Shown here in pieces: positions 46,593 through 50,140 of a stretch of 64,000 bases of DNA. Position numbers and translations under genes: made by a program. Position 1 is the first letter of the stretch. Each line of letters opens with the position of its first letter. Below the pieces are notes generated by a model, which was not told where the DNA came from, did not search any database, and saw nothing but the letters and a program-made list of their open reading frames with translations. The stretch comes from the human T2T-CHM13v2.0 reference genome, Homo sapiens. The stretch lies in assembly GCF_009914755.1 (NCBI RefSeq), contig NC_060927.1; one strand, given 5' to 3'.

Positions 46593-46626
46593 GGCCGGGT
46601 GCGGTGGCTCATGTCTGTAATCCCAG
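46593..46626 (+). mobile_element. 34-nt Alu 5' stub
   Basis: ggccgggtgcggtggctcatgtctgtaatcccag, then an abrupt stop. Confidence 0.85.
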
Positions 46627-46634
46627 ACGTGATA

Positions 46635-46980
46635 ACATAAAATTCCAGGTTACTTATAAACCCTCCCATAATTTATCAAACCTTATGGAGTTCCCAGTAG
46701 CTCCTTTATAATATACATACTTGATGACTATTTTTTTCAGCATTGGAAATTCAATGAATTGATAGTAATCTAAATGCCTGTATTACTGACCCATCCCCCT
46801 GGAGATATTTTTATTTACTTTAAAAAGTGGCTTATAAAATTAATTACAGATAAAATAAAGTACCACTTGGGAAAATTTAGTTATCGTACTTGATATTGAA
46901 TACAGGTCCTGCTTATGTAACAAATAAAAAAATATATAAAAATCCCACTTTCAGAAATACCAAGCTTATCTTGAGATTTA
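46635..46980 (+). repeat. Left arm of inverted duplication (continues at 49056-49070 after the L1)
   Basis: Reverse complement of 49778-50140; about 11 substitutions and a few indels by eye. Confidence 0.95.
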
Positions 46981-49055
46981 TTTATTTATTTATTTATTTA
47001 ATTATTATTATACTTTAAGTTTTAGGGTACATGTGCACAATGTGCAGGTTAGTTACATATGTATACATGTGCCATGCTGGTGTGCTGCACCCGGTAACTC
47101 GTCTTTTAGCATTAGGTATATCTCCTAATGCTATCCCTACCCCCTCCCACCACCCCACAACAGTCCCCAGAGGGTGATGTTCCCCTTCCTGTGTCCATGT
47201 GTTCTCATTGTTCAATTCCCACCTATGAGTGAGAACATGCGGTGTTTGGTTTTTTGTCCTTGCCATAGTTTACTGAGAATGATGATTTCCAATTTCATCC
47301 ATGTCCCTACAAAGGACGTGAACTCATCATTTTTTATGGCTGCATAGTATTCCATGGTGTATATGTGCTACATTTTCTTAATCCAGTCTATCATTGTTGG
47401 ACATTTGGGTTGGTTCCAAGTCTTTGCTATTGTGAATAGTGCCACAATAAACATACGTGTGCATGTGTCTTTATAGCAGCATGATTTGTAGTCCTTTGGG
47501 TATATACCCAGTAATGGGATGGCTGGGTCAAATGGTATTTCTAGTTCTAGATCCATGAGGAATCGCCACACTGACTTCCACAATGGTTGAACTAGTTTAC
47601 AGTCCCACCAACAGTGTAAAAGTGTTCCTATTTCTCCACATCCTCTCCAGCACCTGTTGTTTCCTGACTTTTTAATGATTGCCATTCTAACTGGTATGAG
47701 ATGGTATCTCATTGTGGTTTTGATTTGCATTTCTCTGATGGCCAGTGATGATGAGCATTTTCTCATGTGTTTTTTGGCTGCATAAATGTCTTCTTTTGAG
47801 AAGTGTCTGTTCATATCCTTAGCCCACTTTTTGATGGGGTTGTTTGTTTTTTTCTTGTAAATTTGTTTGAGTTCATTGTAGATTCTGGATACTGGCCCTT
47901 TGTCAGATGGGTAGGTTGCGAAAATTTTCTCCCATTTTGTAGGTTGCCTGTTCACTCTGATGGTAGTTTGTTTTGCTGTGCAGAAGCTCTTTAGTTTAAT
48001 TAGACCCCATTTGTCAATTTTGGCTTTTGTTGCCATTGCTTTTGGTGTTTTAGACCTGAAGTTCTTGCCCATGCCTATGTCCTGAATGGTAATGCCTAGG
48101 TTTTCTTTTAGGGTTTTTATGGTTTTAGGTCTAATGTTTAAGTCTTTCATCCATCTTGAATTGATTTTTGTATAAGGTGTAAGGAAAGGATCCAGTTTCA
48201 GCTTTCTACATATGGCTAGCCAGTTTTCCCAGCACCATTTATTAAATAGGGAATCCTTTCCCCATTGCTTGTTTTTCTCAGGTTTGTCAAAGATCAGATA
48301 GTTGTAGATATGCGGCATTATTTCTGAGGGCTCTGTTCTGTTCCATTGATCTATATCTCTGTTTTGGTACCAGTACCATGCTGTTTTGGTTACTGTAGCC
48401 TTGTAGTCTAGTTTGAAGTCAGGTAGCGTGATGCCTCCGGCTTTGTTCTTTTGGCTTAGGATTGACTTGGCGATGCGGGCTCTTTTTTGGTTCCATATGA
48501 ACTTTAAAGTAGTTTTTTCCAATTCTGTGAAGAAAGTCATTGGTAGCTTGATGGGGATGGCATTGAATCTATAAATTACCTTGGGCAGTATGGCCATTTT
48601 CATGATATATATTCTTCCTACCCATGAGCATGGAATGTTCTTCCATTTGTTTGTATCCTCTTTTATTTCATTGAGCAGTGGTTTGTAGTTCTCCTTGAAG
48701 AGGTCCTTCATGTCCCTTGTAAGTTGGATTCCTAAGTATTTTATTCTCTTTGAAGCAATTGTGAATGGGAGTTCACTCATGATTTGGCTCTCTGTTTGTC
48801 TGTTATTGGTGTATAAGAATGCTTGTGATTTTTGTACACTGATTTTGTATTCTGAGACTTTGCTTAAGTTGCTTATCAGCTTAAGGAGATTTTGGGCTGA
48901 GACAATGGGGTTTTCTAGATATACACTCATGTCATCTGCAAACAGGGACAATTTGACTTCCTCTTTTCCTAATTGAATACCCTTTATTTCCTTCTCCTGC
49001 CTAATTGCCCTGGCCAGAAATTCCAACACTATGTTGAATAGGAGTGGTGAGAGAG
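46981..49055 (-). mobile_element. 5'-truncated young L1 (L1PA3-like)
   Basis: L1 3' UTR with GAG (not the Ta ACA) diagnostic, 1.66 kb open ORF2, TSD gattta at 46975-80 and 49056-61. Confidence 0.95.
47368..49029 (-). pseudogene. LINE-1 ORF2p C-terminal half (RT FADD motif, cysteine-rich C-terminus), non-functional
   Basis: 553 aa [15 protein letters not shown]...SLFADDM...[18 protein letters not shown]; lacks the endonuclease and RT N-terminus; premature TAG at the KKMW position. Confidence 0.92.
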
Positions 49056-49071
49056 GATTTAAACTGTTTTG

Positions 49072-49347
49072 GGCCAGGCACAGTGGCTCACACCTATAAT
49101 CCCAGCACTTCGGGAGGCCGAGGCTGGAGGATCACGAGGTCAGGGGATCATGACCATCCTGGCTAACACGGTGAAACCCCATCTCTATTAAAAATACAAA
49201 AAATTAGCCGGGCATGGTGGCACTTGCCTGTAGTCCCAGCTACTCAGGAGGCTGAAGCAGGAGAAACGCTTGAACCAGGGTGGCAGTGCCACTGCACTCC
49301 AGCCTGGGCCACAGAGCGAGACTTCATCTCAAAAATAAATAAATAAA
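49072..49347 (+). mobile_element. Alu (Y/Sc8-like body, right-monomer deletion, probably chimeric 5' end)
   Basis: ctggctaacacggtgaaacc; ttgaaccagggtggcagtgccactgc lacks roughly 20-25 nt of consensus. Confidence 0.88.
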
Positions 49348-49487
49348 TAAAATAAAACCAAAAATGCTTTTTGGAGAATGTATGTGCATCTTTAAAATGG
49401 TAAATGAAGACATTCACATTTTATTCAAATATATGTATGTACCAACTTACCCTACTTTTGAAGAACTTTGTGTCATGAAACATTTTT

Positions 49488-49776
49488 TATTTTTTTTGAG
49501 ACAGAGTCTCGCTCTGTTCGCCAGGCCGGAGTGCAATGGTGCAATCTAGGCTCACTGTAACCTCCGCCTCCTGGGTTCAAGTGATTCTCCTGCCTCAGCT
49601 TCCTGAGTAGCTGGGACTACAGGCCCCTGCCACCACGCTCGGCTAATTCTTGTATATTCAGTAGAGACGGGGTTTCACTATGTTGGCCAGGATGGTCTCG
49701 ATCTCTTGACCTCGTGATCCACCCACCTCGGCCTCCCAAAGTGCTGGGATTACAGACGTGACCACTGCGCCTGGCC
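49488..49776 (-). mobile_element. AluSc
   Basis: gaggtcaagagatcgagaccatcctggccaac on the minus strand; TSD aaactgtttc / aaaatgtttc. Confidence 0.9.
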
Positions 49777-49777
49777 C

Positions 49778-50140
49778 GAAACAGTTTAAATCTCACGATA
49801 AGCTTGGTATTTCTTAAAGTGGGATTTATATTTTTTTTTATTTGTTACATAAGCAGGACCTGTATTCAATATCAAGTACAATAACTAAATTTTCCCAAGT
49901 GGTACTTTATTTTATATGTAATTAATTTTATAAGCTGTTTCAACTCACTTTTTAAAGTAAATAAAAATATCCCCAGGGGGGATGGGTCAGTAATACAGGC
50001 ATTTAGATGACTATCAATTCATTGAATTTCCAATGCTGAAAAAAATAGTCATCAAGTATGTATAAAGGAGCTACTGGGAACTCCATAAGGTTTGATATAT
50101 TACAAGAGGGTTTATAAGTAAGTAACCTGGAATTTTATGT
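49778..50140 (-). repeat. Right (inferred donor) arm of inverted duplication
   Basis: Reverse complement matches 46635-46980 plus 49056-49070. Confidence 0.95.

What the first reader, a model, noticed from the sequence alone, without database searches (positions are those of the whole stretch)
46593..50140. Inverted duplication of unique DNA, probably made by template switching between inverted Alus
Seen: 46635-46980 plus 49056-49070 is the reverse complement of 49778-50140. This is ~350 bp with about 11 substitutions and indels of 4, 5 and 10 nt by eye, and I recognise no known repeat in it. Each arm runs into an Alu at the same point (aaactgttt(t/c)gggccaggc), yet the two Alu bodies are different subfamilies (gctaacacgg Y/Sc8-like vs gtcaagagatc Sc) and differ far more than the arms do. 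Only the right Alu has its own TSD (aaactgtttc/aaaatgtttc). An orphan 34-nt Alu 5' stub sits at the outer end of the left arm. Inference: the left Alu broke near nt 34 and was repaired by copying the 5' flank of the inverted right Alu, rejoining through Alu homology. That gave a chimeric Alu and a quasi-palindrome with ~650-bp arms and a ~140-bp spacer. Repeat masking would not flag this, and it is too short for usual segmental-duplication calls.
Basis: partly seen in the sequence, partly recalled or inferred. Interest (0 to 1): 0.8.

Follow-up and report, generated by a model that had tools for sequence, protein, structure and literature searches.

The report
Inverted Alu pair copied its flank
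About 363 bp of single-copy human DNA next to one Alu was copied in reverse into a neighbouring, oppositely oriented Alu, leaving a hybrid Alu and a 34-nt Alu stub: a clear fossil of a known kind of DNA repair or replication error, with no sign of function.

Summary
46635-46980 plus 49062-49070 is the reverse complement of 49778-50140: 12 substitutions in about 355 aligned positions, with indels of 4, 5, 1, 10 and 2 nt. The arm occurs at only these two places in the T2T genome.

Both arms meet an Alu 5' end at the same nucleotide. The Alu bodies, however, differ by 14.8% against 3.2% for the arms (non-CpG 11.0% vs 2.9%, Fisher p=3.7e-5), and they carry haplotypes of different Alu lineages.

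The right arm is the source, because the right Alu's target-site duplication (9 of 10 nt) spans the spacer and the arm. The left copy lies between a 34-nt Alu 5' stub plus 8-nt filler and a chimeric Alu. A minus-strand L1 fragment (46981-49055, TSD GATTTA) later split the left arm.

Best reading (0.8): a break or stall near nt 34 of a pre-existing left Alu in a tail-to-tail inverted pair. The end paired with the right Alu and copied outward about 400 nt. It was then rejoined, through Alu homology on one side and by end joining on the other.

Primate outgroups, the decisive test, were not available. This is a new example of a known kind; interest is low to moderate.

The parts
46593..46626 (+). 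Orphan Alu 5' stub, Alu nt 1-34. Read as the retained 5' end of the original left Alu.
   Evidence: (family D2, 83% to another Alu 5' end). It starts at Alu nt 1 after ...gttaaaaaataacaacata. It keeps CpGs at nt 4-5 and 10-11.
46627..46634 (+). 8-nt filler ACGTGATA at the non-homologous junction. Its first 6 nt can be templated by snap-back of the stub's own 3' end (stem tcaYgtctg/cagacgtga, loop taatcc).
   Evidence: 53 of 20000 random fillers give as long a fold-back run. The 9-mer CAGACGTGA occurs on the + strand of the window only here and in the right Alu (49753).
46635..46980 (.). Left arm, main part: inverted copy of 49787-50140.
   Evidence: (only two places in the genome).
46981..49055 (-). 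5'-truncated L1 3' fragment, inserted later into the left arm. TSD GATTTA at 46975-46980 and 49056-49061. The A-rich tail, read as its complement, starts at 46981.
   Evidence: 4698 candidates, 40 scored, best others 97-98% identical; 10 private differences in 685 sites.
49062..49070 (.). Left arm, last 9 nt, containing the copied right-Alu TSD (aaactgttt t).
49071..49368 (+). Chimeric left Alu. The first 12-53 nt were copied from the right Alu. The rest is a Y/Sc8-like body (name recalled) with internal deletions and an (AAAT)n-like tail.
   Evidence: It has no TSD of its own.
49369..49476 (.). Single-copy spacer (108 bp) between the two Alu tails: the loop of the fold-back.
49477..49777 (-). 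Right Alu (Sc-like, name recalled) with its left TSD copy GAAACATTTT at 49477-49486. Its 5' end is at 49777.
49778..50140 (.). Right arm: the source sequence (363 bp). It begins with the right TSD copy GAAACAGTTT at 49778-49787.

Best explanation
This is a fixed, ancient, local inverted templated insertion seeded by a tail-to-tail inverted Alu pair.

Ancestral state (inferred): flank X - left Alu(+) - 108-bp spacer - right Alu(-) - unique DNA.

1. A break or stall arose near nt 34 of the left Alu. In a tail-to-tail pair that is the base of the Alu/Alu hairpin.
2. The 3' end carrying left-Alu sequence paired with the right Alu. This could be intrastrand fold-back, or pairing with the other template at a fork.
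3. That end was extended outward through the right Alu's first nucleotides, its TSD and 363 bp of its 5' flank, up to 50140.
4. The new strand came off its template. At the inner side it is continuous with the left Alu body through Alu homology, which gives the chimeric Alu. The switch lies somewhere between Alu nt 12 and 53.
5. At the outer side it was joined without homology to the retained 34-nt stub, through an 8-nt filler that is partly snap-back templated.

The result doubled the hairpin-forming potential of the locus. A minus-strand L1 later inserted into the left arm and split it. I see no evidence of function; it is a neutral structural fossil.

Of the 0.8 I give this reading, about 0.45 goes to the break, fold-back priming and end-joining form, and about 0.35 to a purely replicative two-switch form.

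Shown: the duplication, its polarity, the chimeric Alu, the stub, the filler and the later L1. Inferred: the pre-existing intact left Alu, the position and nature of the lesion, and the enzymes.
For: - The arm is two-copy (2 candidates, 2 scored).
- Arms differ at 11 of 345 aligned pairs, plus 1 CpG site at the end. Alu bodies differ at 39 of 263. Non-CpG 2.9% vs 11.0%, Fisher p=3.7e-5.
- The two bodies carry different three-site lineage haplotypes: 4,652 vs 29,471 genomic 32-mers, mixed type 646.
- Polarity: the right Alu's TSD matches 9 of 10 nt across spacer and arm. The left Alu has no TSD as it stands.
- The stub starts at Alu nt 1 and keeps two CpGs that the right Alu and left Alu nt 1-15 share as CA.
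- Filler: 6 of 8 nt fit snap-back of the stub end; 53 of 20000 random fillers do as well.
- The source lies about 0.7 kb from the copy once the L1 is removed (coordinates). That fits local template use.
- DNA folding: model ancestor -289.5 kcal/mol, after duplication -613.1, present core -301.2.
- Known precedents, read as passages. Hybrid Alus at fold-back junctions of large human inverted duplications (PMC3907307). Foldback priming at one DSB end with capture by the other end in yeast (PMC11724301). Chimeric Alus and a proposed U-turn at inverted Alus 310 bp apart (PMC4352052). Closely spaced inverted Alus depleted, and hairpins attacked at their base (PMC3215922).
Against: - No outgroup was examined, so the ancestral intact left Alu is inferred only.
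- The TSD that should flank stub...left Alu tail is not demonstrable (8-nt AAAAATAA, matched by 1108 of 2000 shuffles).
- Alu nt 22 is T in both the stub and the right Alu but C in the left Alu. Every version of the model needs one homoplasy here. The variant has a genome frequency of 3.8% (7,442 vs 187,785 25-mers) and 3.1% among right-type Alus (137 vs 4,279).
- Within the supposedly copied Alu nt 1-34, left and right differ by one indel and two non-CpG substitutions. That is more than the arm average predicts, though compatible with it (my Poisson estimate, about 0.2).
- The filler could equally have been copied from the right Alu, which holds the same 9-mer.
Confidence: 0.8

Rival explanations
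1. Purely replicative template switching (FoSTeS/MMBIR type) with no double-strand break. The nascent + strand leaves the left Alu at nt 34, copies the + strand from 50140 leftward into the right Alu, and returns to the left Alu by homology at about nt 12-20. That would duplicate left-Alu nt ~16-34. This is a sub-variant of the best explanation and its 0.35 is counted inside that 0.8.
For: It gives the same products. Right-Alu-specific states (deletion of nt 16, T22) are absent from the left Alu, as expected if the return was before nt 16. The filler 9-mer is present in the right Alu, as a brief extra switch would give. Chimeric Alus are attributed to replicative mechanisms in PMC4352052.
Against: The stub and left Alu nt 16-34 would then be duplicates of one sequence, yet they differ at two non-CpG sites in 19 nt. 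The filler fits snap-back of a free end, which suggests end joining.
Confidence: 0.35
2. The whole unit, arm plus right Alu, was duplicated in inverted orientation. The left Alu body was later overwritten by gene conversion from a Y/Sc8-like Alu elsewhere.
For: The arm/Alu junction is shared. Alu-Alu gene conversion is known (recalled).
Against: It needs a conversion tract of about 250 bp ending sharply near the Alu 5' end. It also needs a separate origin for the 34-nt stub, which starts exactly at Alu nt 1. The left tail and the internal deletions are also unlike the right Alu.
Confidence: 0.05
3. The composite stub-arm-Alu is a chimeric retrocopy. L1 reverse transcriptase started on an Alu RNA, jumped to a read-through transcript covering the right Alu's 5' flank, then jumped to a third Alu RNA.
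For: All three pieces are co-oriented. The composite ends in an A-rich tail and begins at Alu nt 1 behind a TT|AAAA-like site.
Against: The copy lies about 0.7 kb from its source. A random insertion would land that close with a chance of order 1e-6 (my estimate, 1 kb in 3.1 Gb). Two template jumps and an arbitrary RNA 5' end at 50140 are required. No TSD could be shown.
Confidence: 0.03
4. The arms are terminal inverted repeats of a DNA transposon or another dispersed repeat, or the structure is an assembly artefact.
For: None found beyond the inverted symmetry.
Against: Only two places in the genome match. The right Alu's TSD shows that spacer and right arm were contiguous before that Alu arrived. 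A 3% divergence with five indels, and an L1 with 1.46% private divergence inside one arm, are not what a collapsed or mis-joined assembly gives.
Confidence: 0.02

Closest known systems
Fold-back inverted duplications with hybrid Alu/L1 at the disomy-inversion junction (Hermetz et al. 2014, PMC3907307; passages read)
   Same: An inverted copy separated from its source by a single-copy spacer. Oppositely oriented Alus (82-90% identical in their cases) lie at the boundary, and a hybrid repeat is formed at homologous positions.
   Different: Their events are megabase-scale, terminal, pass through a dicentric chromosome and carry a terminal deletion. Their spacers are 766-70,466 bp. Here the copy is about 0.4 kb, interstitial, with both flanks kept, and the spacer is 108 bp plus the Alus.
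Local foldback templated insertions at double-strand breaks in yeast (PMC11724301; passages read)
   Same: One end folds back on inverted (micro)homology and primes synthesis. The new strand unwinds and is captured by the other end by NHEJ or alt-EJ with little or no microhomology. A longer inverted repeat results.
   Different: Theirs are 2 to about 150 bp, seeded by 10-nt microhomology, and experimental. This one is about 375-400 nt, seeded by ~300-bp diverged Alus, and fixed in a primate germline.
Alu-Alu chimeric junctions in DUP-TRP/INV-DUP and related complex rearrangements (PMC4352052, passages read; PMC11293582, listing only)
   Same: Chimeric Alus form at template switches. A U-turn at closely spaced inverted Alus is proposed.
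   Different: Those are pathogenic rearrangements of kb to Mb with copy-number gain of genes. This is a sub-kb event in an lncRNA intron.
Short-range template switches in great apes, four-point model (Walker et al. 2021, PMC7954356; passages read)
   Same: A reverse-complement copy of nearby sequence is inserted, which creates an inverted repeat.
   Different: Their copied fragments have a median of 12 nt and a maximum of 128 nt. This one is 363 bp plus the Alu start, and it returns through repeat homology.
Instability and depletion of closely spaced inverted Alu pairs (Cook et al. 2011, PMC3215922, passages read; Lobachev 2000 and Stenger 2001, recalled, not read)
   Same: A tail-to-tail inverted pair with a spacer of about 100 bp, the range where hairpin-driven breakage is proposed.
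   Different: The usual outcome discussed there is deletion or loss of the pair. Here the pair survived and its inverted repeat grew outward.

Membership tests
Alu-Alu mediated rearrangement with chimeric Alu | The junction lies at homologous positions of two Alus and yields one hybrid Alu | tested here: met
   Identical arm/Alu junction and shared CA at nt 4-5 and 10-11. After that the bodies differ by 14.8% and carry different lineage haplotypes.
Alu-Alu mediated rearrangement with chimeric Alu | Both parental Alus existed before the event | tested here: inconclusive
   The right Alu has its own TSD. The left parent is inferred from the stub. The TSD test is not significant (1108 of 2000 shuffles). 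No outgroup was available.
Fold-back inverted duplication (Hermetz type) | A single-copy spacer lies between source and inverted copy, with inverted homology at its edges | tested here: met
   108-bp spacer flanked by inverted Alus.
Fold-back inverted duplication (Hermetz type) | Terminal deletion, or a history as a dicentric chromosome | tested here: not met
   The event is interstitial. Unique flanks are present on both sides (46551-46592 and 50141 onward).
[quoted passage not shown] | The second junction lacks homology or carries a short insertion | tested here: met
   8-nt filler and no microhomology at 46626/46635.
[quoted passage not shown] | Size range 2 to ~150 bp as described | tested here: not met
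   363 bp of flank plus at least 12 nt of Alu were copied.
Short-range template switch (four-point model) | The copied fragment is tens of nucleotides (median 12, maximum 128 in PMC7954356) | tested here: not met
   363 bp.
Segmental duplication | At least 1 kb at 90% identity or more (definition recalled) | tested here: not met
   The unique arm is 363 bp. The Alu part is only about 85% identical.
DNA transposon TIR / dispersed repeat | Multiple dispersed copies in the genome | tested here: not met
   2 candidates, 2 scored, both at this locus. Old, very diverged copies could be missed by that search.
RT-mediated chimeric retrocopy | A TSD flanks the whole composite, and the insertion site is unrelated to the source locus | tested here: not met
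   TSD not demonstrable. The source is about 0.7 kb away.

The most novel reading that the evidence does not exclude
This locus may be one visible example of a general, uncatalogued class of primate mutation. In it, closely spaced inverted Alu pairs do not only get deleted. They sometimes grow outward by hairpin-primed copying of their flanks, seeding quasi-palindromes of a few hundred bp. Such events fall in a blind spot. They are longer than those found by short template-switch scans (maximum 128 nt in PMC7954356), shorter than segmental-duplication thresholds, and invisible to repeat masking. If common, they would be a nucleation step for larger palindromes and a source of long intronic dsRNA.
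Probability: 0.2. Interest if true: 0.55.

Novelty: new member of a known kind. Interest (0 to 1): 0.3.

Why it matters
The locus preserves both junctions of an old inverted-Alu-mediated copying event: a homology junction inside an Alu, and a non-homologous junction with a templated filler. It also preserves a polarity marker, the right Alu's TSD. That makes it a natural, germline-fixed counterpart of fold-back and template-switch mechanisms otherwise known from patients, tumours and yeast, at an intermediate size that current catalogues do not cover.

It has no apparent bearing on a gene. The only annotated feature is an intron of lncRNA LOC101928135. Its value is as a worked example and as a search image for a genome-wide scan, not as a new mechanism.

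Tried and rejected
- TSD test for stub plus left Alu: inconclusive in A-rich sequence. My first positive control for the right Alu in that call used coordinates 3 nt off and scored poorly. The correct TSD pair is printed.
- I asked whether Alu nt 22 = T marks a lineage that would tie the stub to the right Alu. It does not: 3.8% overall and 3.1% among right-type Alus. I did not run the matching pair of counts for left-type Alus, nor the fourth haplotype combination (G..C..T).
- Stub as a copy of the right Alu: rejected on CpG states.
- L1 insertion as part of the same event: rejected. It has its own TSD GATTTA at a TTT/AAA-type site and sits inside an already formed arm. Its private divergence (1.46%) is about the same as the per-lineage arm divergence (1.6%), so the two events cannot be ordered by divergence, only by nesting.
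- A genome-wide scan for similar events was not attempted. The genome is too large to be laid, and a sample of about 2 Mb would be uninformative.
- Literature: five searches found the mechanism classes but nothing on this locus. None described a sub-kb evolutionary outward extension of an inverted Alu pair. That is absence in these searches only.
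Full report
**What is there**

The window is T2T-CHM13 chr3:34,968,001-35,032,000. On the + strand the region reads as follows.

| Coordinates | Feature |
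|---|---|
| 46216-46540 | Unrelated Alu with a perfect TSD (14 of 14 nt; 0 of 2000 shuffles as good) |
| 46593-46626 | 34-nt Alu 5' stub, starting exactly at Alu nt 1 behind ...gttaaaaaataacaacata |
| 46627-46634 | 8-nt filler ACGTGATA |
| 46635-46980 | Left arm, main part |
| 46981-49055 | Minus-strand, 5'-truncated L1 fragment, flanked by GATTTA at 46975-80 and 49056-61 |
| 49062-49070 | Last 9 nt of the left arm |
| 49071-49368 | Left Alu (+) |
| 49369-49476 | 108-bp spacer |
| 49477-49486 | Right Alu's left TSD copy, GAAACATTTT |
| 49487-49777 | Right Alu (-) |
| 49778-50140 | Right arm, beginning with the second TSD copy, GAAACAGTTT |

**Checking the observation**

- With the L1 and one TSD copy removed, the left arm aligns end to end with the reverse complement of the right arm.
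- One search counts 345 aligned pairs and 11 substitutions (3.2%). My right-arm range there stopped 3 nt short. One search shows the missing end and adds a twelfth substitution, a CpG T/C at 49070/49778.
- The indels are 4, 5, 1, 10 and 2 nt.
- A search of the whole 3.1-Gb assembly with the left arm found 2 candidates and scored 2: the arm itself and the right arm (E=3.3e-139). The arm is therefore not a dispersed repeat at the sensitivity of that search.
- In a self-BLAST of the 64-kb window this is the only high-identity inverted repeat of non-mobile DNA.

**The Alus**

- Both arms meet an Alu 5' end at the same nucleotide: aaactgttt(t/c)|gggccaggc.
- Beyond that point the two Alus differ at 39 of 263 aligned pairs (14.8%). 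Non-CpG differences are 11.0% against 2.9% in the arms (Fisher p=3.7e-5).
- The differences are lineage states, not private noise.

| Three-site haplotype (32-mer) | Copies in the genome |
|---|---|
| Right Alu type, GGTCAAG...GGCCAACAT | 4,652 |
| Left Alu type, GGTCAGG...GGCTAACAC | 29,471 |
| Mixed, A..T..C | 646 |

- The names Sc and Y/Sc8 are recalled, not tested against a library.
- The two bodies therefore come from different retrotransposition events, although their 5' junctions are identical. The left Alu is a chimera.

**Polarity**

The right Alu's TSD (9 of 10 nt) has one copy on the spacer side and one inside the right arm. Spacer and right arm were therefore contiguous before that Alu arrived, and the right arm is the original. 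The left arm carries a copy of that TSD and of the Alu start. The left Alu, as it stands, has no TSD of its own (best match reached by 365 of 2000 shuffles).

**The stub**

- At Alu nt 4-5 and 10-11 the right Alu and the left Alu both read CA. The stub still reads CG.
- If the left Alu's first nucleotides were copied from the right Alu, the right Alu had already lost these CpGs at the time of the event.
- The stub cannot then be another copy of the right Alu. It fits the 5' end of a different, older element at that position.
- It starts at Alu nt 1 behind a TT|AAAA-like site, as a normal insertion would.
- The direct test was inconclusive. A TSD should be shared by the stub's 5' flank and the left Alu's 3' flank. 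In this A-rich sequence the best match is 8 nt, equalled by 1108 of 2000 shuffles.

**Where the copy ends inside the Alu**

- Left and right Alus differ at a CpG at nt 9, then by a 1-nt indel at nt 16.
- They differ next at a CpG at nt 21 and at non-CpG sites nt 22 and nt 25.
- A CpG-type difference follows at about nt 40 (49111/49738).
- After that there is nothing until nt 53-54, where dense divergence begins.
- The switch can therefore lie anywhere from about nt 12 to nt 53.
- A switch exactly at nt 34/35 would mean no base of the left Alu was lost or duplicated. That is what fold-back priming from a clean break predicts.
- An earlier return (nt 12-15) would mean a replicative event that duplicated nt 16-34.
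- Neither is excluded.

One detail is unexplained. Nt 22 is T in the stub and in the right Alu, but C in the left Alu. This variant is not a lineage marker.

| Set counted | T at nt 22 | C at nt 22 | T share |
|---|---|---|---|
| All 25-mers of this Alu region | 7,442 | 187,785 | 3.8% |
| Right-type Alus | 137 | 4,279 | 3.1% |

Every version of the model therefore needs one coincidence of roughly that size.

**The outer junction**

- The filler's first six bases (ACGTGA), together with the stub's terminal CAG, form the reverse complement of stub nt 17-25. This allows for one CpG decay in the stub.
- In other words, this is a 9-bp hairpin with a 6-nt loop.
- Only 53 of 20000 random 8-mers give as long a snap-back run.
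- This looks like a templated insertion at a free 3' end. It favours, without proving, joining of two ends at this junction.
- The same 9-mer also occurs once more in the window, in the right Alu (49753), so a brief copy from there is an alternative.

**Mechanism**

The ancestral locus was, by inference, a tail-to-tail inverted Alu pair 108 bp apart. The literature read here (PMC3215922) places hairpin-driven instability at spacers up to about 100 bp. It also notes that yeast nucleases attack hairpins at the base.

In a tail-to-tail pair the base of the stem is the Alu 5' ends, which is where the lesion (nt ~34) lies.

1. The 3' end bearing left-Alu antisense sequence pairs with the right Alu on the same strand.
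2. That end is extended through right-Alu nt 34-1, the TSD and 363 bp of flank.
3. The product is unwound and joined to the other end.

This is the scheme described for yeast DSBs in PMC11724301, with Alus in place of 10-nt microhomology. It is also the small, interstitial counterpart of the fold-back inverted duplications with hybrid Alus in PMC3907307. A fork-based two-switch version gives the same product (PMC4352052).

Four of the 12 arm substitutions cluster within 8 nt (46666-46673). The five indels are mostly at short repeats. Some of this may be error-prone synthesis at the event rather than later decay (inference).

**Consequences and age**

- Single-strand DNA folding gives -289.5 kcal/mol for the model ancestor, -613.1 after the duplication with the L1 removed, and -301.2 for the present core 49000-50200. 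The z-scores are -21.9, -58.1 and -20.8 against 10 shuffles each.
- The event thus doubled the hairpin potential. The L1 insertion then interrupted it.
- The L1 3' 691 nt is 97-98% identical to the best 40 scored of 4,698 candidates.
- Against 20 fetched relatives it has 10 private differences in 685 sites (1.46%). The arms have about 1.6% per lineage.
- With a recalled neutral rate near 0.1%/Myr, both events date to very roughly 10-20 Myr. Their order follows from nesting only.
- The region lies in an intron of lncRNA LOC101928135 (hub annotation). I found no sign of function.

**Rivals**

- A full arm-plus-Alu duplication followed by conversion of the left Alu body (0.05) does not explain the stub.
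- A chimeric retrocopy made by reverse-transcriptase template jumps (0.03) would explain the common orientation and the A-tail. It cannot explain why the copy sits about 0.7 kb from its source.
- A transposon TIR or an assembly artefact (0.02) is contradicted by copy number, the TSD logic and the divergence.

**Verdict**

This is a new example of a known kind of rearrangement, unusual mainly for its intermediate size and for the clean preservation of both junctions. Five literature searches found the mechanism classes but no description of this locus.

Noticed in passing
window 46666-46673 vs 50105-50098: Four of the 12 substitutions between the arms fall within 8 nt (CCA vs TTG, plus T/A). 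A multinucleotide cluster like this could stem from error-prone synthesis during the copying event rather than from later point mutation.
   Followed up: no
window 46614 (stub nt 22), 49756 (right Alu nt 22), 49093 (left Alu nt 22): The stub and the right Alu share a non-CpG C-to-T change at Alu nt 22 that the left Alu lacks. Its genome frequency is 3.8% overall and 3.1% among right-type Alus, so it is not a lineage marker. It remains an unexplained coincidence under every version of the model.
   Followed up: partly
window 12084-12382 and 12812-13111: Two Alus in direct orientation, 728 bp apart start to start, are 92.7% identical over 300 nt. That is closer than the other Alu pairs in the window. 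It could be a small tandem duplication or two young copies of one subfamily.
   Followed up: no
window 21837-22186: Direct repeat offset by 160 nt, 94.7% identical over 190 nt, inside a masked block. It looks like a tandem array with a period near 160.
   Followed up: no
window 7183-7814 vs 47000-47632: A second L1 3'-end fragment in the same orientation, 91% identical to the one inside the left arm. It is an older or different L1 copy, unrelated to the finding.
   Followed up: no
window 49262-49300: Relative to the right Alu, the left Alu lacks about 22 nt in three gaps (4, 5 and 13 nt) of its right monomer. These deletions shorten the Alu/Alu stem near the loop. Whether they are hairpin-associated is unknown.
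   Followed up: no
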